Of a stretch of 64,000 nt of DNA, positions 1,825-57,240 are shown piece after piece. The stretch's first letter is position 1. Each line of letters starts with the position of its first letter. A program made the translations under genes and the position numbers. The notes beneath the pieces were generated by a model, which saw only the letters and a program-made list of their open reading frames with translations, was not told the DNA's origin and ran no database searches. Source of the stretch: an uncultured virus (IMG/VR IMGVR_UViG_3300005827_000008) (Duplodnaviria > Heunggongvirae > Uroviricota > Caudoviricetes); the IMG/VR virus record IMGVR_UViG_3300005827_000008; one strand, given 5' to 3'.

Positions 1825-3101
1825 TCAATTAAATAAATCAATTTCTAATTTGTGCGCCCGCTTCATCAAAATACTCAATGCTTCTACGCATAAATAACTT
1901 TCGTATGGCGGTGTTTTGCCTGAGTATTCTGTATTCATTAGGGTAGTAGAGATTATGCTGAGTTCTCCGGTGGTCAGGTCAATAAAGTCTTTGGTAATAT
2001 CTATACCCTGACTAACGAAATACGCTAATTGCAAATTTTCTCTTTCTGGTTCTGTTAATAGTTCTGATAGTGTTGCCATTGCTACTTTGATAATAATTTT
2101 AAGGACAGAAACCAGTTAAAAATATGGTTTTTAACCCCAAGCGAATAGCCCCACTTTCCTGTAATTAAAAAGACAATAGGAACACATGCAATCATTAGTA
2201 CCATTGTAATGATTGCAAAAGGCAGCGTTAGCCTAACCCAAAAATTAACTGACGTTTCTTCCTCGTAATAAAAATCCATCTTTAACTCAATCAATCTATC
2301 GCATAGTTCCTCGGCATCAATTTTTGATAACTCAGGGAATGCCTTTTTAAAATCCGGTATGTATGCATAGTTGTTGCGCCAAGTCCTGTGTAGTTTTCTG
2401 TATATCATTGCTTTACGGTTTATATCTAATCCAACGACTTAACTAGAACTTCCAGTTTTTCAGCAAACTCAGCAGACATTGCCCGCAGGCTTGCAACTCT
2501 TGTCTTGTCGCTTGCAAACCTAATATAATGATCTCTCATGTTTATTAAATCCTTCTTTATGTCGGTCTGGCGACTCCCTTTAAGGTCTAACTTTAACTGG
2601 TCTTGTAGGGTTGTCTTTTTTATTATCTCAATGGCAATTTCGCTTATTGCCTTTTCTAGCAGCATCAAATCTTTTCGTAGATTACCCTGCTCTTTGCAAA
2701 GTTGGTTGTACTCATGGTCTGGCATCCTTCCATTTGTCCTAATCTCCGTTTTTATAATAGAGTGCTTTAACTCAATCTGCCTTTTGTCAAATATAAGTTT
2801 ATCTTTTTGTTGGTTCAGGTTGTTGATTGAAACCTGAAGATCAATAATGCTTTGTCCCGGATTTGTCATTTATGTATTACGGTTTATAGTTATACTTCTC
2901 TTTCAACACGGCAACCAGCTTTTTTATGTTCTCAGGCTCCAATGTTTTTCTGAAACCATTTAACAGACGGGTGCTAGTGCCTGATTGAAACCCGCACTTA
3001 AAGTCAACATATAAAAGATTAAACCTGTCACGGTCTTGCCTGATAAATTCAAGCGCACGGGTTAATGTTTGTGCGTCTTTTTCTGTTTGTTTTAAAATCA
3101 T
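1825..3101 (-). CDS. Four hypothetical genes (1825-2079, 2082-2408 membrane protein, 2426-2869 coiled-coil, 2877-3101)
   Basis: Co-oriented, tightly packed ATG-start ORFs. Confidence 0.6.
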
Positions 3102-3105
3102 GGTA

Positions 3106-3189
3106 CAAAGATATAAACTGTTATAACAAAAACAACATAATAAATAATTATTTTTTTTCTTGCATATTAATTTTATGTCCTTACCTTTG
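3106..3189. promoter_or_regulatory. Divergent Bacteroidota-type promoter pair
   Basis: TATCTTTG on the minus strand (3106-3113) and TACCTTTG on the plus strand (3182-3189) match the TAnnTTTG -7 consensus at a strand switch. Confidence 0.7.
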
Positions 3190-4413: not shown

Positions 4414-4830
4414 ATGAAACTATCCCCAAACAAAATGGGCATCCACTTAGCCACATATTCAAAAAACTCATACTGGAAGTTTTTGGGGCCAGAAGATAAG
4501 ATTCACGCTGAGTGTGTGGACTTTCTTAGTGCCACTGATTTAATATGGGCGCACCCACCAAACGAAGGGAAAAGAACCCCTTTTGAGCAATTTAAAGCAA
4601 AAGTTCTGGGAATAACGTCAGGGCTAATGGATTTTCTTATCTTTGAGCCACACGCAGGTTATTGCGGGCTATTTATAGAGATTAAGGCAGGGAAAAACAC
4701 ACAATCCCCGTCACAACTAGAAATGGCCGCAAAGCTATCCGCAAAGGGTTATAGGTGTACCGTATGCTATTCTAAAGATGAGTTTGTAAAAGCAGTTGAA
4801 GATTATTTGAAAATAAATTTGCATAATTGA
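4414..4830 (+). CDS. VRR-NUC domain nuclease (Holliday junction resolvase-like)
   Basis: HPPNEGKR, GITSGLMDFLI, GLFIEIKAGKNTQSPSQ and GYRCTVC motifs. Confidence 0.85.
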   Translation: MKLSPNKMGIHLATYSKNSYWKFLGPEDKIHAECVDFLSATDLIWAHPPNEGKRTPFEQFKAKVLGITSGLMDFLIFEPHAGYCGLFIEIKAGKNTQSPSQLEMAAKLSAKGYRCTVCYSKDEFVKAVEDYLKINLHN

Positions 4831-4841
4831 AATTGATGTTT

Positions 4842-4950
4842 TAGTTTTGTTGTACCTTTTACGCTCCGACAAGCAAAATAGGATTTTCTCAATTAAACAG
4901 ATACAAGTAACCCCCATTCTTTTGTCGGAGCGTTGGGGGTTTACTTTTTT
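4842..4950 (+). promoter_or_regulatory. Promoter plus structured leader/terminator (element A)
   Basis: TAGTTTTG at 4842; ACGCTCCGACAA (4861-4872) is complementary to the loop (4922-4933) of a downstream hairpin with a T-tract. Confidence 0.65.
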
Positions 4951-5653: not shown

Positions 5654-5682
5654 AAACCCCTTGACATTATGAAAAAGTTCAC

Positions 5683-5800
5683 TAATTTTGTACCACTAAC
5701 ATAGTGAAGGATGTTAAGTTTCAATAGGCCGTATTTCTCATTCATATTATACGCTACCAGAAGCCCCGCAGTCCTTCACCTGTTGGGGCTTTACTTTTTT
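5683..5800 (+). promoter_or_regulatory. Promoter plus structured leader/terminator (element B)
   Basis: TAATTTTG at 5683; GTGAAGGA (5704-5711) is complementary to the loop TCCTTCAC (5772-5779) of the AAGCCCC/GGGGCTT hairpin with a T-tract. Confidence 0.6.
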
Positions 5801-7043: not shown

Positions 7044-7385
7044 AACGTGTTTTCGCTTGCCGTCAGGTGGGGCAATCGAAACACTAAGTTGTCAAACCAC
7101 CACCGAACTTTAATTGAAAAACTGCACTTGGGTTTAACGCATAACCCCCACTTGTGGCAAACGAATGTTGTGCGAAGTGTTTTATTATGATACAATACAA
7201 AGTTTTCAGAATTGTTGGCAATGAAGAACTACCTGACGGAGTGCTTCGCCAAATTATTGAAGATGCAAGTTTCTCTTGGTACGAAAGCATAGAGGAAGCA
7301 TTTCAAAGAATAAAAGAAATAGGAGATGATTATGTTGATTACACTGTTTTGCCTGTTTTGCGGATGGATTAACATTTCGCACAAC
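7044..7385 (+). mobile_element. Integron-like gene cassette 1 (5' hairpin plus gene 7187-7372)
   Basis: AAC at 7044; arms TTCGCTTGCCGTCAGGTGGGG / CCCCACTTGTGGCAAACGAA; GTTGTGCGAAGTGTT (7167) is mirrored by AACATTTCGCACAAC (7371-7385). Confidence 0.75.
7187..7372 (+). CDS. Cassette-borne hypothetical protein, 61 aa
   Basis: ATG just after the GTT core; TAA overlaps the terminal inverted repeat. Confidence 0.65.
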   Translation: MIQYKVFRIVGNEELPDGVLRQIIEDASFSWYESIEEAFQRIKEIGDDYVDYTVLPVLRMD

Positions 7386-7400
7386 TTGCGTATATGTATA

Positions 7401-7429
7401 ACTAACTAGTATAACACTATATTGTAAAT
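7401..7429 (+). repeat. Post-cassette conserved motif ACTAACTAGTATAACACTATATTGTAAAT
   Basis: Exact 29-bp copy at 10936-10964 and a partial copy at 49191-49205, each 15 nt after the cassette-terminal AAC. Confidence 0.9.
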
Positions 7430-7439
7430 CAAATAATTT

Positions 7440-9125
7440 ATGACCACAGATAAAACAAAGAACGAGGGGGTGCCAATGACAGCGAAAGAGATTCGTGACC
7501 AGTCGGGCAGATTTCTTGCCCAAGTAGAGTTATATTGCAATAAAATCAGGTGGGAATTAGGTAATCTTGATGGGTTGGAAGATTGGCAAGTAATGAAAAT
7601 TGAGGATTTTTCTAATTCGGCTATACAGAGGTTTAAAGAGTTGCAGGAACTTGTAAAAATAAAGCCGGAAAATTGACCGCTATGTACATATCAAAAAGGA
7701 TAGAGAAATAATAAAAAACGAATATGAAACAGTTCACTATTTTAAACAAACAAACAGAATTATCAGCCCCAACTGCATTTGCATGGGGTGAGGTTCGCTA
7801 CCTTATTGACGATGGATTAAACGTCTGGCAGGTTTTCAAGGGGGATGGAGAAACTGTAATTGAAAAAAATCCAGACCTATACGTGCAGTTTGATAATACC
7901 TCGCAAGAAATGAACCGACTGCAAAAGCTAAAAGCGGATTACCATAAAATTGAAAACGGAACCCACGGATTTTCCAAGGACGGAAATGTTTCCAAGGATG
8001 GGATTAAACCACCTTCTGTGTTTAAGTAGTATGGCACCTCCAAAATGCGAAAACTGCGGAAAATTCGCTCCAATTAGACTTATGGATAATGTTTTTATCC
8101 GTGTTTTATATGGGCAATTTTCAGTAGATCGGGAACTTTTTTATCACAGAACATGTCCACCCAAAAAGCAAAAGTAAAATGGAAAAGATTTTAGTAAAAA
8201 CAAATACTGTTGGCGGGATGGAAATTGATGGGTATCCGGTTACGTGCCAGACAAAGACGATTAGAGCCGAACTTGATTTAATTCACGAAGCCAATACAGA
8301 ATTTTACCTTCCAGACACATATACATACGAATTAATTGAGTCTAACTTTTGGGGTAAGTATGTAGCAAAAATAGTTTACACACAAAATAAAAATAATATG
8401 TACAATGTAACATGCCTTGTCACAGGCAAAAGTGACAACCTAAGAATGCACGCCATGAGAAGCGAAAAGGGCGAAATGATAGGATGGGTTTTTCTTCACG
8501 AAAGCCTATCGTTAGAAGACATTGAAACAGAAGTTTCGTGGAAACATAAAATCAGTGCTGGAAATATTGCTATTACAAAAACCGGATTAAAATCAACCAA
8601 CTAATAAATCCAAATGAAAAAGAAAACTGTAGTTATGCAAGTTTCTTTGCATGAAATAGCGGCAGACATCGCTATTAATATCCAGTCGGGCAAAATTGAT
8701 TTATCAAAAGATACGCTACGTGGGATTGCTGATAAGATAGGGAGAAAAGGGTGTTCCCCTCAGCAAATCAAACACCACCTACAAGGGCTTGTTACATTGG
8801 GCTTTTTGTCTATTGTAGGCGGGAATATTATCTATATTGCGCCAGTGCAAGAAAAACGTAATCCAGAAGATTTTAAAAAGTGGAGGGACTATTTAGCCAA
8901 TAACGCATGAGCAGCAATACAACAACAAACCCTGCATCGAAACAAGAATTTGTTAACGGACGGCTTTATGGCCAATTAGTGAAGCGAAGGAAAGATGGAT
9001 TTTGCCAAAAGTGTAACGGTGAAATTAAGAAAGGCGACCAAGTATTAGTGGTAAAGGAACTGGATGGGTTTACAATAAAACCCATAGGGTTGTGCCATGT
9101 AGAGTGTTTTAAAGATTTTAGTTAA
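7440..9125 (+). CDS. Hypothetical gene cluster (7440-7676, 7724-8029, 8179-8604, 8614-8910 winged-HTH-like, 8907-9125 Zn-ribbon-like)
   Basis: TLRGIADKIG..SPQQIKHHLQGL resembles a wHTH; the last ORF has CxxC...CHxxC. Confidence 0.55.
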
Positions 9126-9181
9126 CGATAAAGTTTTGTATGTAAATGCAGGAAGCCTTTGGCTAAGTTGTAATATATTTC

Positions 9182-9886
9182 ATGACCACTATTATACCAT
9201 ACAACCTAATAACCACACACCCAGACGTACTTCATTATTGGGTTAAGTTAAAATGTTATGGTATAGTTTACAATTTCAACTTTCGCAATTTAGCCGGGAT
9301 ACTCAGAGTTAGCCCCACAACAGCCGGGAAACACTTTAAGGTTATGCAAGAACTTGGGTTAGTGCATTTTACTGGCAAAAACTTAGTAGTTACAGGTAAT
9401 AAAAAACTTTCACAAAAATACAGATTAGTAAAAACAAGGGTATTCAGGAAGAAATCTGCTCAGAAAATGGCATTTTTCTCCCTGGTTATCGGTGACAACA
9501 TAAAAAAACAGTCCAAAAGGATAAGTAAAAAGCTGAATATAATAAAAAGGCTTAGGTCGAATAGAAGAATAACCTCACAGCAGTACCGTGTAATACGTGT
9601 AAATGGTGGAGAGGCAGCGTTTGAAAACTCTTTTAATACTAAAACTATGTTGTCAAATAAAAAAATAGGTCGTATGCTTTACAGGGCACCCCGTACAGCA
9701 TCGAAGTACCAGAAGGCAATGAAAGACCTTGGATTGATAACGAAGCGGGCAAACCTGCGCTTAGTTGCAAAAAACGTGGGTTTAAAAAAGTTTGCTTGTG
9801 AGGTCGGTAGGAACATGATTGTTATAGGTAGTGACCTTTACAGACAACTTCCGAACTACATATCAGTACATAGCCTTAGTAGTTAG
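9182..9886 (+). CDS. Basic protein with two wHTH-like segments (possible replication initiator or regulator)
   Basis: NLAGILRVSPTTAGKHFKVMQELGLV and KIGRMLYRAPRTASKYQKAMKDLGLI. Confidence 0.5.
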   Translation: MTTIIPYNLITTHPDVLHYWVKLKCYGIVYNFNFRNLAGILRVSPTTAGKHFKVMQELGLVHFTGKNLVVTGNKKLSQKYRLVKTRVFRKKSAQKMAFFSLVIGDNIKKQSKRISKKLNIIKRLRSNRRITSQQYRVIRVNGGEAAFENSFNTKTMLSNKKIGRMLYRAPRTASKYQKAMKDLGLITKRANLRLVAKNVGLKKFACEVGRNMIVIGSDLYRQLPNYISVHSLSS

Positions 9887-9951
9887 AACAAAACTGAACA
9901 AAGGGGTTTAAAACAAAAAAAAGAACTAATTTTACAAAATAAATAAGCGCA

Positions 9952-10580
9952 ATGGAAACAGAAATTACAAAAAGCGAATACGGTAAATTTTTCGCTAAGT
10001 ACGGGGCGGTACACCGCAAGTCAATACACTCAGACTTGTTGTCATATATAAGAAAAACAAAAGGGGGTGTTACTTTTGTTTTTAACAAGCAAACATTAGG
10101 AGGCAAAAATGTAATATCGGCAACCGAAGTCCATCCCGGCAGCAGTGAGGTTATTTTTTCTCTAATTGAGTTTTACAACCTTGCTGATCTTGAACAACTT
10201 TTAGACCGGAGTAGATTAATTAAAGGGTTAAAAATAGCACAATGGGACACTTCACAAAGCGGTTAGAATATGCGCACATGGTTAAAATGCGCATAAAAAG
10301 CAACAAAGTTTTACAAAAGGTTCAATCAGATATGCAATCCGGCATACCCATATTGTACGAAACTTATATGCAGTTGATGCTACAACTACCAGAAATATTC
10401 CAGAAAAACGAACTGGTTAAACTGGTTCAATGGCAATCCATCCCCACTGAAATACACAAGGGATATGCTAAAGAAGTTGAAGAAATGGCCAAATCAGGAC
10501 AATTAACCAATACAACTCAGATGGAAAACCTGTGGCTTAAATGGTATCTAAAGTATAACGTGCCGTTTTATGCGGTGTAA
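9952..10580 (+). CDS. Two hypothetical genes (9952-10266, 10242-10580)
   Basis: ORF track; the second gene's TAA forms the TAAC junction of cassette 2. Confidence 0.55.
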
Positions 10581-10920
10581 CGCCCTGCGGCTTTGCTGTC
10601 GGGCGGGACTTTTGAAAACGAATTTATCAACTTAGTAAAAAAATAAAATATGAAAACGAAAACATCATTAAACCAAGAAAACCCGCCTGCGGCAAAACCG
10701 ATGTTAGGCGATGCCTTTCGGTGGGACGAAATAGCTTATGACTTTACAAAAGAAAAAGGTCAAATTGGGGCAATACTATTTTGTGAAGAAATGATTGCCG
10801 ACAAAAAGAAACAGATTAACGAACTGGATTTTTACGATGGTGAACGAGTGTCTGCGTTACAAAATAGTATGATGGATTGGGGTGCAATTCGGAGTAGGGT
10901 GGAGAAAGGTTTCGCCTAAC
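10579..10920 (+). mobile_element. Integron-like gene cassette 2 (5' hairpin plus gene 10650-10919)
   Basis: Arms CGGCTTTGCTGTCGGGCGGG / CCCGCCTGCGGCAAAACCG; GTTAGGCGATGCCTTTC (10703) is mirrored by GAAAGGTTTCGCCTAAC (ends 10920). Confidence 0.8.
10650..10919 (+). CDS. Cassette-borne hypothetical protein, 89 aa
   Basis: Starts in the hairpin loop, reads through the right arm and GTT core, and stops in the terminal TAAC. Confidence 0.65.
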   Translation: MKTKTSLNQENPPAAKPMLGDAFRWDEIAYDFTKEKGQIGAILFCEEMIADKKKQINELDFYDGERVSALQNSMMDWGAIRSRVEKGFA

Positions 10921-10978
10921 TTGAAGACATAAGCGACTAACTAGTATAACACTATATTGTAAATAAAATAAAGGTAAG

Positions 10979-12263
10979 ATGGATAATCAGGAAATACAAA
11001 ACAAGATAAGAAGTATTGAGAGTAAAATATCTCATCAGAAATCAATAATTAAGGTCGCTGAGTCTGATATTGATATTTTGCGGAGAGAGTTGTTTTTGAT
11101 TAAATGGGTGAAAATATCGTGGAAAGACCTAGAAAGTTGGCTAAAAACAAATAGACCAGAAAATAACTATGAAAAAAATCCCATTGTTTGCGATGGTTCT
11201 TTAAACGAAAGAACAAGTTATTGCAAACTAAATAGCGAAGGAAAGTTGCAGATAGGCGCATTTAGCACTACTGACTTTTTTGAAGAAGGTAATGATAGTT
11301 TGTATGTAACCTATAATTTTGAGCCGTATCGTAGCGTATGAAGCAGCAAGTAATAACCCGCAAGGAAGCACTAAAAGGAATAAAGTTTGCGCAAGACCGT
11401 TACAGGTGGTACGGAGGCAGGGTGCGCTTTGGGTGGATGCGCCCTGAGGACTTGTTAAAAAAATCTACACAAGAGCAGATGAACGAACACATGGCGGGCG
11501 TGGTATTGGATATTGCAAAAAGAACACTACCCAAGATAAGTGTTGATTTAACCGAACAAGACGTAAGGCAGATTATCAAAAACACCCCGAAAGACGATAG
11601 TATTCTTAACAGCGTTTACGCCTCACCTGAATATTGGGAAGAATTTGACAGGGTTGTGAAGCAGCAATATTTGAAATAAAAGCGTTATTTTTGTCTTAAC
11701 AGAATTAAGCAAACATGAAAGAAAATATAGAACAAATCGAAAAGCCCTGGGATACCAATTTTCTGAGGGGAAAAGTTGAAATTGATGATTTTACAATTGA
11801 CATTTCTTTCTATGCCGGAGCTAAATCAAGGAACCATGAAATAGAAAAATTGCCTTATCTTGTGCCTTTTTTTGAGCGCATGAAACTTGAATTATGCAAA
11901 GAATTTATGTCGCAAGCTTTTGAGTCTAAGATAAAAAAACTAAACATACCAGAAGGGCTTACTGGCCCTGCGGATGAAAAACTTTTAAAGGTAATACAAT
12001 TCAATAACCTATCGGGGCAATTTGTTTTACTATGCAAAGACCCGATATGTAATCATATTTTAAGCCTTACTTTTAGGGACTTTACAACCGGGGGAGGCGT
12101 GGGTAAAGATGCCCTACCTACAAAATGGGGTCACGTTTATGGAGTTGCGGATTGTTATTTTGCTATTGTATCTCCGCGTATAACCCCACACGGGCTTGAT
12201 TATTTTGATTTATCTCTGGACTATAAAGGGTTTGATGTGTACGACTTAGATATAGAGTTTTGA
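10979..12263 (+). CDS. Three hypothetical genes (10979-11341, 11338-11679, 11715-12263)
   Basis: Co-oriented ORFs; a promoter box precedes 11715. Confidence 0.6.
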
Positions 12264-13219
12264 AGATGAAACTAATTAACAATCAAATACTCGTAAAGCC
12301 TACTTACACCGAAAAGGTGGGTTCTATTTTTATTCCCGAAAACGCTGAGTCAAAAAAGTACGCCACGGTAAGCGGTGAAGTTTTGGCTATGCCAGAATCA
12401 CCAGTTTATTGTCACGGAAACCCCATTTCCTTACAGGTAAAGGTAGGCTTTGAAATTCAAGTTGGGGATACTGTATGGTTCCACTTTTCCTGTGAAGGGG
12501 ATGCAAGAGAAGAAGGTAAGTATATCGGAGACAATTTTCTGGTAAACTACCGGGACTGCTATGTTACAAAACGTAGGGGACACATAATCCCACTAAACGG
12601 GTTCGTATTAGGAAAACCAGTTATTAGCGACTTTTTAGAACAATTCCCGGCACTAAAAGCAATTGGGTTCAGAAACTCAGACAAGTTTGTTGATGCGCAC
12701 GATTACCGGAACAGGTGTATTGTTACGCACGTAGGGCAATTAATACCCGAATACAAGCACGGAATAGATAATGAGGTTATACAGCCTGACGACCCATCTA
12801 TAAAACCAGGGGATGAGCTGTTACTCACCCCGTATGTGGGCAATGAACTTGAAAAACTTGACCAAACATTAATCCCCGGACAGCCTACATACAGGTTTCA
12901 GAGAAGGGATATTATTGGCAAAATAGTAAACGAGCAAATAGAAAGCATTTCAGACAGGTTGTTGATAAAAGCAGATTCAGCAGAAAAGAAAATAGGCAGT
13001 ATAATCATTCCAGATATTGCGCAAAAACCCACAGAAGTACAAACCGGAACCGTGTTAAGTAGGGGGTATTTTGTAAAAGAAAAGTATTCAAAGGTTTATT
13101 TCCTAAAAAGCAGGGCTATGAAAATCCTGTTTAATGGTGAGGAATATTTCTCAGCAAGGGAAAGGCATTTACTTGGTTCGGATACAAATTCACCACTATT
13201 TGCTAAGTTGAGCGTCTAA
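12260..13219 (+). CDS. Co-chaperonin GroES-like protein with three tandem domains
   Basis: Repeated GroES-like starts LINNQILVKP, IPLNGFVLGKP and ISDRLLIKA; GSIFIPENA and GSIIIPDIAQKP mobile-loop motifs; IQVGDTVWF and IKPGDELLL. Confidence 0.75.
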   Translation: MKMKLINNQILVKPTYTEKVGSIFIPENAESKKYATVSGEVLAMPESPVYCHGNPISLQVKVGFEIQVGDTVWFHFSCEGDAREEGKYIGDNFLVNYRDCYVTKRRGHIIPLNGFVLGKPVISDFLEQFPALKAIGFRNSDKFVDAHDYRNRCIVTHVGQLIPEYKHGIDNEVIQPDDPSIKPGDELLLTPYVGNELEKLDQTLIPGQPTYRFQRRDIIGKIVNEQIESISDRLLIKADSAEKKIGSIIIPDIAQKPTEVQTGTVLSRGYFVKEKYSKVYFLKSRAMKILFNGEEYFSARERHLLGSDTNSPLFAKLSV

Positions 13220-31187: not shown

Positions 31188-31661
31188 TGGGCGGACGGTT
31201 TGGGCAGGCTGCAAAACTTGACCAACTTTCTACCCGAACCAACATCGGCAGCTTGCTTAAACCGTAGGTTAGAAGCAGTTAATTAAACGTTGTGCGTGGG
31301 TCACGTAAGATAAATTGAAAATAAAATTATGGAAAATAAAAAAATAATACCAACCACATTTAGAAATACATGCGAAGATGACGAAAGTGAATTATTTGCC
31401 TTACTATTTCTTTTAGATGTTCAACAATATGTTTATTATGATAATGACGATGACAATGATATTTTGATGTTAGAAAATCATTTAAAGTCAAAAAATATTG
31501 AGTTTGAAAAAGGTCAAAGAAATAGAAAATATTTAACAATAAATGTAAAAACAGAACAGACATACGGTGAATTTATGAGAAGCAATCCACCTATTAATTG
31601 ATTGTCAAAACAGCGCTAAAGGCGGAAGCAAGCCAAAAGGTTTAATTTATTGCTTTCTAAC
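31186..31661 (+). mobile_element. Integron-like gene cassette 3A (gene 31329-31601)
   Basis: Arms ACGGTTTGGGCAGGCTGC / GCAGCTTGCTTAAACCGT; GTTAGAAGCAGTTAATTAAAC (31268) is mirrored by GTTTAATTTATTGCTTTCTAAC; left junction is AAT rather than AAC. Confidence 0.75.
31329..31601 (+). CDS. Cassette-borne hypothetical protein, 90 aa, very AT-rich
   Basis: ORF track; lies between the terminal inverted repeats. Confidence 0.65.
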   Translation: MENKKIIPTTFRNTCEDDESELFALLFLLDVQQYVYYDNDDDNDILMLENHLKSKNIEFEKGQRNRKYLTINVKTEQTYGEFMRSNPPIN

Positions 31662-31946
31662 GGCTGAGTATAACAGAAGGTGGGGATTAAAAGTACTGAA
31701 CCCCGACTTACCCAGAAAAGTAAATTAGAAGTACAATAGCTGAATGATGGAACTACACCCCACTTTTGGTTATACTTTGTTAGGTGTATGTAAAATTAAA
31801 GAATATGTACGAAGAAATTAAACAAGCCTTACTTGACAAAGGTTTTTCAGAAGATACAGCTTGTAGATTGGCTGAATTTATTAATGATGCTGGTTGGGAT
31901 ACAGTTAGAGATGCACTAAATGCTCTTTAATTTTATTACACCTAAC
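31659..31946 (+). mobile_element. Integron-like gene cassette 3B, tandem with 3A
   Basis: Arms GAGTATAACAGAAGGTGGGG / CCCCACTTTTGGTTATACTT; GTTAGGTGTATGTAAAATTAAAGA (31779) is mirrored by TCTTTAATTTTATTACACCTAAC. Confidence 0.8.
31805..31930 (+). CDS. Cassette-borne 41-aa protein (not in ORF track)
   Basis: MYEEIKQALLDKGFSEDTACRLAEFINDAGWDTVRDALNAL fills the space between the inverted repeats exactly. Confidence 0.7.
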   Translation: MYEEIKQALLDKGFSEDTACRLAEFINDAGWDTVRDALNAL

Positions 31947-48166: not shown

Positions 48167-48206
48167 ATTTTCTTACAAAAACACTTGCATATTCAAAATC
48201 TGTCCT

Positions 48207-48319
48207 TATCTTCGTGTTGTCTTTTAAGTCGTAGCAGCCTCAAAGGAATTTCATCATTTTTTGTTTATTTATAAAGGAAAGCCCCCATTTCATGCTACGA
48301 CTTAGGGGGCTACCTTTTT
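48207..48319 (+). promoter_or_regulatory. Promoter plus structured leader/terminator (element C)
   Basis: TATCTTCG near-consensus box; TAAGTCGTAGCA (48225-48236) is complementary to TGCTACGACTTA (48293-48304) in the loop of AGCCCCC/GGGGGCT. Confidence 0.65.
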
Positions 48320-49175
48320 AACGGTTTGGTGTATATGTAGTGGTGGATAAAAAAGAGATGAACTTTGATTAACAACAAAACTTCATAGAAACCACAAATG
48401 TTGAATTACAGATGAAACCACCATTACATATAAACCTTGTTACCTGCTGGTACGGTTAATTTAGTAGAAACTTAAATACGAAGAACGAAACAAAAAATTA
48501 AAATTTAAAAGCGATGGCAAAAAAGAAAACAATCTGGGATTATTTTGATGACAATATTGATTACCCAAATGAAGTAGCGCACAATCCATTACCATACGGA
48601 ACTGTGTGGCGTTACATTTCATCAACATTTTTAAATGGAATGATAAATTATGTGAAACCTATTAACTGCTTTGTGTTGGATAGATATACAGCAGATGATG
48701 AAAATGTTGGTGATAGAAATTTTACCGTATGCAACAAAGGTGAATTTGGTAAATGGCATAAATGGGAAGGAACAAAGAAAGAATTAATTAAAGCGATTAC
48801 TACTGGTGAAAAAGAAATGTATCATACCGACATGAATTGCTTTGGTGATGATATTGCTTTGCTTTCCGAAATAGAAACCAATGAAGAAGATGGTAAAGGA
48901 AGATATGTGTTCTTTTGGTTTGACTGTGATGTTTCAGATTGTTGCATAGGTAAATTTGAAACTACTGACACCAAAGAAGAGGTGGCTCAATCAATGAGAA
49001 ATTGGCTTGACAAAAGTAAAGAAGAAAATAAAGGCAAAGTAGTTGAAGAAGGATATGATAATGGAATTGTGAACTACTCCGAACTTCCTATTTCTTTTTT
49101 GAAGGGTTGGCTTAAATTTTAATTTTTTGAACCGAAATGATAATACGAAGCGATACAGTAGTGCTTGCAGGTAAC
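48320..49175 (+). mobile_element. Integron-like gene cassette 4 (gene 48514-49122)
   Basis: Arms GGTGTATATGTAGTGGTGG / CCACCATTACATATAAACC; GTTACCTGCTGGTAC (48439) is mirrored by GTGCTTGCAGGTAAC (ends 49175). Confidence 0.8.
48514..49122 (+). CDS. Cassette-borne hypothetical protein, 202 aa
   Basis: AT-rich ORF inside cassette 4. Confidence 0.75.
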   Translation: MAKKKTIWDYFDDNIDYPNEVAHNPLPYGTVWRYISSTFLNGMINYVKPINCFVLDRYTADDENVGDRNFTVCNKGEFGKWHKWEGTKKELIKAITTGEKEMYHTDMNCFGDDIALLSEIETNEEDGKGRYVFFWFDCDVSDCCIGKFETTDTKEEVAQSMRNWLDKSKEENKGKVVEEGYDNGIVNYSELPISFLKGWLKF

Positions 49176-56784: not shown

Positions 56785-57240
56785 CGACCGAGTATTGCCG
56801 AAGTTGGGGAATTGGCAGTACCGAAGTTGATTTAAAAACAAATGATAACAAATTATTCAAAAGCCCATCAAAGTACGTCAAGCCCCAATTTTGGCAATAC
56901 TTATGTTAGGCACGGTACGGTAAAATTATGGAATACGCTGATGTAATTTCTCTTGGGTGGAAAGATAGAAACCCTGAAAGTAAAAATGAAAATACAAAGA
57001 CATTTATTTATGAATCCGAAGGTTTTGATTACCACATAATGAGTGTCGGATTTGGTTGTGGTGATGATACAGCTTTTGACTTGATAATGATAAACTGTGT
57101 GCCTCAAGAAACTGTGTCAAATATTTGGGAAAATTCCGAAACCCATTTTTACGGTGAAATGAAAACAAAACAAGAGTTAGATATAACAATGCAACTTGTC
57201 GGGGTTACTCAATATAGAGGGTTGTAGTATTGTGCCTAAC
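56783..57240 (+). mobile_element. Integron-like gene cassette 5 (gene 56928-57227)
   Basis: Arms GAGTATTGCCGAAGTTGGGG / CCCCAATTTTGGCAATACTT; GTTAGGCACGGTAC (56905) is mirrored by GTATTGTGCCTAAC (ends 57240). Confidence 0.8.
56928..57227 (+). CDS. Cassette-borne hypothetical protein, 99 aa
   Basis: ORF fills the cassette; the stop abuts the inverse core. Confidence 0.7.
   Translation: MEYADVISLGWKDRNPESKNENTKTFIYESEGFDYHIMSVGFGCGDDTAFDLIMINCVPQETVSNIWENSETHFYGEMKTKQELDITMQLVGVTQYRGL

What the first reader, a model, noticed from the sequence alone, without database searches (positions are those of the whole stretch)
10579..10920. Reversed polarity: the attC-like hairpin precedes the gene and folds on the coding strand
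Seen: solo units have the hairpin upstream of the ORF and none downstream. At most loci only the AAC triplet on the left matches the GTT core, so the full outer stem would form only on circularisation. Pairing the arms by hand on the plus strand gives G-T wobbles in all six (2, 2, 3, 3, 1 and 3), which would be A-C mismatches on the minus strand. Cassettes 1 and 2 also share a C-A mismatch and a bulged T at equivalent positions. The loop next to AAC/GTT is always asymmetric, longer on the left. Established: classical attC follows the gene and its bottom strand is recombined. Inference: the crossover here is at the 5' AAC on the coding strand, which points to a distinct cassette class.
Basis: partly seen in the sequence, partly recalled or inferred. 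Interest (0 to 1): 0.8.

Follow-up and report, generated by a model that had tools for sequence, protein, structure and literature searches.

The report
Hairpin-first integron-like phage gene cassettes
This phage carries six small swappable gene units built like integron cassettes but back to front, with the folded recombination site in front of the gene on the coding strand, a layout shared by hundreds of units in other phages that carry a small Xer-type recombinase.

Summary
Window 10582-10920 is one of six units, all on the + strand. Each has the form TAAC|G, asymmetric spacer, 18-20-bp stem, 35-74-nt loop, stem, GTTnnnnnn, small ORF, nnnnnnAAC. The 9-nt ends are complementary and differ between units. 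No hairpin follows a solo unit.

A pattern scan of viral contigs found 300 such hairpins in 82 loci, mostly in tandem arrays. Arrays end with ...AAC, about 40-60 nt before a 266-270-aa Xer/IntI-like recombinase on the same strand. Across 80 integrase loci, 259 hairpins lie upstream on the same strand and 17 lie elsewhere.

Polaribacter phage Freya isolates supply empty and filled alleles, with 0 to 4942 nt of array between identical anchors. Every breakpoint falls after AAC, every block starts with a hairpin arm, and the empty allele has no hairpin. Hairpins travel with the downstream gene (101 pairs against 1).

Relative to the integrase the site geometry is classical. What is reversed is the gene, which lies on the recombined (bottom-type) strand. 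Hairpin and gene body are also uncoupled at GTT in some relatives.

No biochemistry was done. This scan has noted the same system on other DNA.

The parts
10578..10581 (+). Left junction TAAC of unit U2. TAA is also the stop codon of the upstream ORF 10242-10580. The inferred crossover lies within or just after AAC.
   Evidence: junction profile in relatives
10582..10587 (+). Left unpaired spacer (GCCCTG), longer than the right one
10588..10607 (+). Left arm of the hairpin (3 bp, C of the C/A mismatch, 7 bp, bulged T, 8 bp)
10608..10681 (+). 74-nt AT-rich loop. It holds ATG 10650, in frame with the ORF body. A similar loop with the same encoded N-terminal peptide precedes other gene bodies in L277.
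10682..10700 (+). Right arm of the hairpin (coding if translation starts at 10650)
10703..10711 (+). Core GTTAGGCGA (GTTRRRY-like), complementary to the unit's right end. ATG 10701 overlaps it.
10650..10919 (+). Cassette ORF (89 aa from ATG 10650, 72 aa from ATG 10701). No Pfam or PHROG family. Its stop TAA is the TAA of the terminal TAAC.
10912..10920 (+). Right end TCGCCTAAC, a perfect complement of the core
10921..10971 (+). Right flank TTGAAGACATAAGCGACTAAC..., repeated after units U1, U3 and U4. Proposed docking (attI-like) site; this is inferred.
7047..7385 (+). Unit U1 (solo): hairpin, core GTTGTGCGA 7167-7175, ORF 7187-7372, end TCGCACAAC 7377-7385
31189..31661 (+). Unit U6: left junction TAAT, 35-nt loop, core GTTAGAAGC 31268-31276, ORF 31329-31601, end TTCTAAC. 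First unit of a two-unit array.
31662..31946 (+). Unit U3: core GTTAGGTGT 31779-31787, ORF 31805-31930, end ACACCTAAC 31938-31946
48323..49175 (+). Unit U4 (solo): core GTTACCTGC 48439-48447, ORF 48514-49122 (202 aa), end GCAGGTAAC 49167-49175
56786..57240 (+). Unit U5 (solo): core GTTAGGCAC 56905-56913, ORF 56928-57227, end GTGCCTAAC 57232-57240. Its right flank is ATAAAATATG, unlike the other units.

Best explanation
The region is a mobile gene cassette of a phage-borne, integron-like system of Bacteroidota phages.

A cassette consists of a folded recombination site (AAC, spacer, stem, loop, stem, GTTnnnnnn), then a small gene on the same strand, then nnnnnnAAC. In the circular form the two ends close the outer helix of the site.

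Cassettes are exchanged mainly at the AAC on the 5' side of the hairpin on the coding strand, so the hairpin travels in front of its gene. In complete platforms, arrays of such cassettes end at a short docking site just upstream of a 266-270-aa Xer/IntI-like tyrosine recombinase on the same strand, and new cassettes are added at that end.

Seen from the recombinase this is the classical integron geometry: recombinase pointing away from the array, docking site, then cassettes. The genes, however, sit on the strand that in classical integrons is the recombined bottom strand. They therefore point towards the recombinase and cannot use a platform promoter.

In this window six cassettes (four solo, one pair) sit at five places in a phage genome that shows no recombinase in its 64 kb. 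Presumably they were delivered in trans.

Shown: the anatomy, the family, linkage to the recombinase gene, breakpoints at AAC, and empty and filled alleles. Inferred: that the coding strand folds as single-stranded DNA, that this recombinase cuts it, and that the right flanks in the window are docking sites.
For: Window anatomy: six units, all on the + strand, with different but self-complementary 9-nt ends. No hairpin follows the solo units. No complement of the left flank lies upstream (0 of 6 as 9-mers; three of the six flanks were read one base off in that call).

Family: pattern scan, 90 stretches in viral contigs; 300 hairpins in 82 loci, never on both strands of one locus (0 of 82); 210 of 300 have an exact 9-nt terminal complement; median unit 450 nt. 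The gene lies on the hairpin strand in 200 of 210 units.

Recombinase: PF00589 with PF13495. The best NCBIfam hit is XerA/integron integrase, below its cut-off. In 80 loci, 259 hairpins lie upstream on the same strand, 8 downstream on the same strand, 8 upstream opposite and 1 downstream opposite. 54 of the 65 loci with at least 1 kb upstream have at least one hairpin there. The last cassette ends ...AAC, 36-76 nt before the match.

Mobility and polarity: the Freya series of 0 to 4942 nt, with breakpoints after AAC. Flank linkage of hairpins is 101 downstream-only pairs against 1 upstream-only. 14 cassette clusters have 2-5 different upstream contexts, with identity switching on at TAAC|G. For the same gene body, the upstream hairpin is shared and the downstream one different in 5 pairs, against 0 the other way.

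Strand: G.T 716 against A.C 255 in 481 non-redundant hairpins. Classical bottom strands have 1.24 against 0.39 G:T pairs and fold 2.12 kcal/mol better (Nivina 2016, PMC5027507, passages).
Against: No experiment and no reads were available: no sequencing run was listed.

The window's phage has no close relative in the collections, so no empty allele of these six sites was seen.

No recombinase was found in the window (tblastn best E 2.2).

For two of the window's own cassettes, relatives share only the stretch from the GTT core to the terminal AAC and carry a different hairpin. 104 non-redundant pairs share the hairpin alone, with identity falling right after GTTA. The right border is therefore also an exchange point, and hairpin-first is a tendency, not a rule.

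One relative of the U4 gene (L271) shows no hairpin upstream in the stretch read and a hairpin downstream.

Extrahelical bases, which mark the strand in classical sites, are not conserved. A bulged T occurs in 2 of 6 units, and on the 5' arm.

The recombinase lacks the IntI-specific insertion.

The G.T bias fits folding of the mRNA equally well. The figure of 431 of 490 hairpins more stable on the + strand comes from a descriptor that allowed G.T on that strand only.
Confidence: 0.8

Rival explanations
1. The hairpins act only as RNA structures in the phage mRNA (5' leaders that control translation or stability of the small genes). The units are not mobile DNA.
For: G-U pairs explain the strand bias equally well. 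RNA arm duplexes favour the + strand in 6 of 6 units. The start codon often lies in the loop: 110 of 210 longest ORFs, which is an inflated count. In unit U2 the stem encloses the start codon.
Against: It does not explain the breakpoints at AAC between isolates, the same cassette in 2-5 different contexts, or the tight link to a recombinase gene. The 9-nt end complement could be RNA pairing, but it also closes the site on circularisation. No Rfam family matches. An RNA role in addition to the DNA role is not excluded.
Confidence: 0.06
2. Classical polarity: each hairpin is the attC of the gene in front of it, the crossover is at G|TT on its 3' side, and the solo units are cassettes that lost their own site.
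For: Inside arrays the two readings cannot be told apart (my analysis). Similarity of the U4 and U2 bodies to relatives starts at the GTT core. L271 shows the U4 gene with a hairpin behind it and none seen in front. 104 pairs share hairpins whose identity ends at GTTA.
Against: Hairpin with upstream flank only is shared in 1 pair, against 101 with downstream flank only. Freya_8 lacks one unit together with the hairpin in front of it and keeps the next hairpin. Arrays start with a hairpin and end without one, next to the recombinase. All five array ends in the window would have to have lost their site in the same way.
Confidence: 0.07
3. A single-strand transposon relative (IS200/IS605-type, PATE) or a MITE with terminal inverted repeats, moved by an HUH transposase or another enzyme.
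For: Strand-specific hairpins, a short conserved cleavage-like tetranucleotide (TAAC) at both ends, and no target duplication beyond it.
Against: There is one hairpin per unit, not two. The arms differ between copies while pairing is kept, unlike copies of one MITE. The consistent neighbour is a tyrosine recombinase. I did not search for HUH genes, so that part is untested.
Confidence: 0.03

Closest known systems
Classical integrons (IntI, attI, attC cassettes; bottom-strand recombination at 5'-AAC-3')
   Same: A tyrosine recombinase sits next to a docking site and an array of one-gene cassettes. Sites are conserved in structure, not sequence, with AAC/GTT cores, an unpaired spacer, a variable loop, G:T pairs enriched on one strand, and ends that close the outer helix on circularisation. 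New cassettes are added next to the recombinase.
   Different: The genes lie on the strand with the bottom-strand marks and point towards the recombinase (200 of 210). The recombinase is 266-270 aa and lacks the IntI insertion: 36 residues where VchIntIA has 84. Extrahelical bases are not conserved. Loops are 25-37 or 62-79 nt with internal repeats and often a start codon. The hosts are phages.
attC clusters without integrase (CALINs) reported in virulent phages (Qi et al. 2023, PMC9892861; abstract and section 3.4 read)
   Same: attC-type sites bound small genes in phage genomes, including a Polaribacter phage, and no integrase is nearby, as in this window.
   Different: That paper reads them with the classical polarity and tests them with IntI1. 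It describes no phage-type recombinase, no inverted genes and no docking sites. The most common hairpin of this family has no blastn match in GenBank phages.
Xer recombinases acting on folded single-stranded phage DNA (CTX phage attP with XerCD; recalled, not read here)
   Same: A Xer-type enzyme without an IntI insertion recombines a hairpin formed by one strand of a phage genome.
   Different: That is whole-genome integration at dif, not an array of gene cassettes.
Integrons with inverted integrase (Treponema and others; recalled, not read here)
   Same: Recombinase and cassette genes point the same way.
   Different: There, as I recall, the integrase lies upstream of the genes. Here it lies downstream of them, at its classical place relative to the sites.

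Membership tests
Integron (sensu IntegronFinder: IntI + attI + attC array) | Integrase of the IntI clade with the IntI-specific additional domain | tested here: not met
   The window has no integrase. The family's recombinase matches TIGR02249 only in two stretches and below the cut-off (138-161 bits against 265). It aligns to VchIntIA (2a3v) with 36 residues in place of 84 between the two stretches. It aligns full length to XerA, 4a8e.
Integron | attC-type site: imperfect hairpin bounded by 5'-AAC and GTT-3' cores, with an unpaired spacer and a variable terminal structure; sequence not conserved | tested here: met
   Six of six window sites. In the family, 276 of 300 have left flank TAAC and 271 of 300 have core GTTA. 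No attC covariance model was on hand, so this was not run.
Integron | Extrahelical bases that mark the recombined strand | tested here: inconclusive
   A bulged T in U1 and U2 only, on the 5' arm. U3 and U4 have a 1x1 mismatch. U5 and U6 have none.
Integron | Cassette genes on the top strand, read away from attI so that Pc can express them | tested here: not met
   Genes are co-directional with the recombinase and point towards it.
Integron | Cassettes gained and lost as units at the conserved triplet, with insertion next to the integrase | tested here: met
   Freya isolates; 14 cassette clusters in different contexts.
Integron | Recombination of one folded single strand, resolved by replication | not testable with these tools
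   Indirect only: G.T 716 against A.C 255.
CALIN / solitary attC in a genome without integrase | attC-type sites with no integrase nearby | tested here: met
   Six sites and no integrase in 64 kb. The rest of the genome was not available.
IS200/IS605-type single-strand transposons | Hairpins at both ends and an HUH (Y1) transposase | tested here: not met
   One hairpin per unit. The HUH gene was not searched for.

The most novel reading that the evidence does not exclude
A phage-specific lineage of integrons exists in which a minimal Xer-type recombinase, without the domain thought necessary to read folded attC sites, recombines the coding strand. Each cassette is a self-contained hairpin-first expression unit whose loop supplies the start codon and sometimes the N-terminal peptide. 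Because both borders of the hairpin can be used, the system shuffles whole genes and also re-pairs protein heads and bodies in frame. Cassettes can also be delivered in trans to several docking sites scattered over a phage genome that has no recombinase of its own, as in this window.
Probability: 0.45. Interest if true: 0.9.

Novelty: new variant of a known kind. Interest (0 to 1): 0.8.

Why it matters
In integron biology, cassette orientation is held to be essential: strand choice by IntI exists so that promoterless genes face away from the platform promoter (Nivina 2016). A large natural family with the opposite gene orientation, run by a recombinase lacking the IntI insertion, would show that the folded-hairpin cassette mechanism needs neither feature.

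It would give a natural test case for how strand choice is made without extrahelical bases. It would also identify a gene-exchange system of phages of marine and freshwater Bacteroidota.

Cultured Polaribacter phage Freya isolates that differ only in cassette number make the question testable at the bench.

Tried and rejected
- Rfam at gathering thresholds: 0 matches in the window. tRNA scan: 0.
- blastn of window 9000-13000 against GenBank phages: no match. blastn of the commonest family hairpin: no match.
- Terminase relatives in IMG/VR: best 42% identity, so no orthologous empty sites. One further unit was found in 820 kb of those loci.
- Sequencing runs: none was listed, so no reads were laid.
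- No whole genome is held for the window.
- The six unit ORFs have no PHROG or Pfam family and no tblastn hit in the 1.9 Mb of loci held at that time.
- MAFFT alignments of the hairpins put the arms out of register. I therefore built no covariance model and counted pairs with my own scripts.
- Reading the loops as Bacteroidota promoters by eye gave no consistent -33/-7 match. This is left open.
- Genome-contig scan with the recombinase: only 2 hits, both on Bacteroidota MAG contigs. The scan used two peptide patterns, so its sensitivity is low.
- Literature: five searches found no paper that describes inverted cassettes or this recombinase with arrays. Bartlau 2021 (PMC8776804, passages only) contains the words cassette, hairpin and variable region zero times. 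Its supplements were not opened.

Full report
**What is at the coordinates.** The window is part of a phage genome: terminase, portal, DnaB helicase, RecT and a DNA methyltransferase by PHROGs. It carries Bacteroidota-type promoter repeats, TTG...TAnnTTTG (family D3; the consensus is recalled). Right after the stop codon of ORF 10242-10580 the + strand reads TAAC|GCCCTG. A 20-nt arm follows (10588-10607), then a 74-nt AT-rich loop, the matching arm (10682-10700), AT, and GTTAGGCGA (10703-10711). The stem has 18 pairs, two of them G-T, one C/A mismatch and one bulged T. An ORF starts in the loop (ATG 10650; in-frame ATG 10701) and ends at 10919. Its stop codon lies inside TCGCCTAAC (10912-10920), the exact complement of the core.

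**Six units.** A descriptor scan finds six such sites in the window, all on the + strand, against 0-1 in five block-shuffles. The units are U1 7047-7385, U2 10582-10920, U6 31189-31661, U3 31662-31946, U4 48323-49175 and U5 56786-57240. The core and end pairs all differ: GTTGTGCGA/TCGCACAAC, GTTAGGCGA/TCGCCTAAC, GTTAGGTGT/ACACCTAAC, GTTACCTGC/GCAGGTAAC and GTTAGGCAC/GTGCCTAAC. U6 matches over 7 nt with an indel.

The left flank pairs with the core only through TAAC. The spacer is 4-6 nt on the left and 1-2 nt on the right. No comparable hairpin follows the right ends.

**A large family.** A degenerate pattern taken from three of the hairpins hit 90 stretches of IMG/VR contigs. In those loci my descriptor finds 300 hairpins in 82 loci, never on both strands of one locus. 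Of these, 210 have an exact 9-nt terminal complement within 3 kb. Loops cluster at 25-37 and 62-79 nt, and the median unit is 450 nt. Most hairpins form chains in which the end of one unit is the left flank of the next hairpin. The gene lies on the hairpin strand in 200 of 210 units.

Inside a chain, hairpin-first and hairpin-last readings give the same picture. Only array ends, solo units and comparisons between genomes can decide.

**The recombinase.** In two array-bearing records a PF00589 gene lies just downstream of the array on the same strand. The last cassette ends ...AAC, and 37-46 nt of non-hairpin DNA precede the start codon. The proteins are 266-270 aa, with PF00589 and PF13495. 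Their best NCBIfam match is XerA/integron integrase, below all cut-offs. They align full length to XerA (4a8e). They align to VchIntIA (2a3v) only in two pieces, with 36 residues where the integron integrase has 84.

A scan with their alignment gave 80 loci. Hairpins there lie 259 upstream on the same strand, 8 downstream on the same strand, 8 upstream on the opposite strand and 1 downstream on the opposite strand. 54 of the 65 loci with at least 1 kb upstream have at least one. The DNA between the last AAC and the gene shares a motif, AAC|TATTATATATAAG....

Turned round, this is the classical layout: recombinase pointing away from the array, docking site ending in G|TT, cassettes of the form TT...AAC-hairpin-G. 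The genes are antisense to it.

**Empty and filled alleles.** tblastn of the recombinase against GenBank phages found 35-39% identical genes in Cellulophaga phage Ingeline and Polaribacter phages Leef and Freya_1 to Freya_10. In seven Freya isolates the DNA between the same two anchors (...TTGTTTACAAC| and |ACCCCTATAACAACAATAAG..., 46 nt before the integrase ATG) measures as follows:

| Isolate | Array length (nt) |
|---|---|
| Freya_1 | 0 |
| Freya_2 | 842 |
| Freya_5 | 1744 |
| Freya_6 | 2216 |
| Freya_8 | 4040 |
| Freya_9 | 4635 |
| Freya_10 | 4942 |

Freya_2, Freya_5 and Freya_9 are prefixes of the Freya_10 array. Freya_6 has an extra block at the integrase end. Freya_8 lacks exactly one internal 902-nt block. 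All five breakpoints follow (C/T)AAC, and each block starts with a hairpin left arm. The empty allele has no hairpin. Freya_8 has lost the hairpin in front of the missing gene and kept the next one, which excludes the hairpin-last reading for that event.

The paper that described these phages gives the size range and calls the integrase a sign of a temperate lifestyle. It does not contain the words cassette or hairpin (PMC8776804, passages).

**Linkage statistics.** I compared units from different loci with at least 90% identical hairpins:

| Flanks shared | Pairs |
|---|---|
| Both | 137 |
| Downstream only | 101 |
| Upstream only | 1 |
| Neither | 332 |

After removing redundancy, 31 pairs in 14 clusters show the same hairpin and gene behind 2-5 different upstream contexts. 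Identity is about 0.3 up to position -5, about 1.0 from TAAC and G, 0.61-0.84 in the spacer, and about 1.0 from +6. From the gene's side, for the same body, the upstream hairpin is shared and the downstream one different in 5 pairs (3 clusters). The reverse occurs in 0 pairs.

**Results against a strict hairpin-gene bond.** 104 non-redundant pairs (30 clusters) share only the hairpin, and identity falls right after GTTA.

The window's own U4 gene has 88-94% identical relatives in four contigs, and U2 has an 86% relative in one. DNA similarity runs only from the GTT core to the terminal AAC. In the contigs where a hairpin stands in front of the gene (L269 and L270 for U4, L277 for U2) it is a different one; in L271 and L272 none was seen in the stretch read.

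U2's hairpin type, including a loop-encoded peptide M(K/E)TKTSLN..., stands in front of two other gene bodies in L277.

The 3' border is therefore also used, more rarely. I read this as occasional recombination of the other strand. That is plausible for sites without conserved extrahelical bases, because deleting those bases equalises the two strands in classical sites (PMC5027507, passages). This is inference.

**Which strand.** A scorer that treats G.T and A.C alike counts 716 G.T, 255 A.C and 144 other single mismatches in 481 non-redundant hairpins (binomial p = 3e-51).

DNA folding favours the + strand in 5 of 6 window units. It does so by 2.2 kcal/mol on average in the family (from a set found with a G.T-tolerant descriptor, so partly circular).

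Nivina et al. report 1.24 against 0.39 G:T pairs and 2.12 kcal/mol for classical bottom against top strands, and cleavage in the 5'-AAC-3' of the bottom strand. The coding strand here therefore carries the marks of the recombined strand. Folding of the mRNA would give the same bias.

**The window's sites.** Four of the five right flanks are related: AAC|TTGCGGATATAAGCGAC... The motif AACTTGN8AGCGAC occurs three times in the window, always at a unit end, against 0.18 expected. These flanks share ATATAAGC with the integrase-proximal sites at the same offset from AAC. I propose that they are docking sites. This rests on resemblance alone.

No integrase is present in the 64 kb, and the rest of the genome is not held.

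**Host range.** The genome scan found only two recombinase relatives, both on Bacteroidota MAG contigs. One has a unit directly upstream.

**Novelty.** Five literature searches found attC clusters in phages (Qi 2023, section 3.4 read). They found no description of inverted cassettes or of this recombinase with arrays.

Earlier notes of this scan describe the same system on other DNA. They are AI notes, not independent evidence. I re-derived the points that I use.

Noticed in passing
window 10608-10681 and loops of L081-L170: The long loops hold two or three imperfect repeats of about 20 nt of the type CAC-nAA(A/T)GTT-nAAtt. Short loops hold one or two. These could be binding sites for an accessory protein or secondary core-like sites.
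   Followed up: partly
window 10650-10711; L277:1255-1420, 1640-1790, 2390-2510: The start codon and about 17 codons lie in the loop and right arm and read in frame through the GTT core. The same head peptide stands before different gene bodies in L277, and U2's body has another head there. Earlier notes of this scan describe such head-body re-pairing.
   Followed up: partly
window 4830-4950, 5655-5800, 48170-48316: Three promoter-like sites are each followed by a structured stretch and a terminator-like GC hairpin with a T run (for example 48218-48311, just before unit U4). These are possible small phage RNAs. Rfam finds nothing.
   Followed up: no
window 7362-7436 and 10897-10971: A 75-nt direct repeat (77% identity) lies at the same offset behind units U1 and U2. 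Both units are exactly 339 nt long although their ORFs look unrelated.
   Followed up: no
L253/L256 (Polaribacter phage Freya_10), array bases 383-842: In one cassette the two hairpin arms are 359 nt apart and the gene appears to lie inside the loop. The core and its complement follow each other directly.
   Followed up: no
L272 (324-kb viral contig), 2451-3111: A homologue of the U4 gene body (87% DNA identity) lies in a context without core, terminal complement or hairpin. It may be a source gene or a decayed cassette.
   Followed up: no
L171:2534-3094: An IstB/DnaC-like ATPase gene lies two genes downstream of the recombinase in one array-bearing contig.
   Followed up: no
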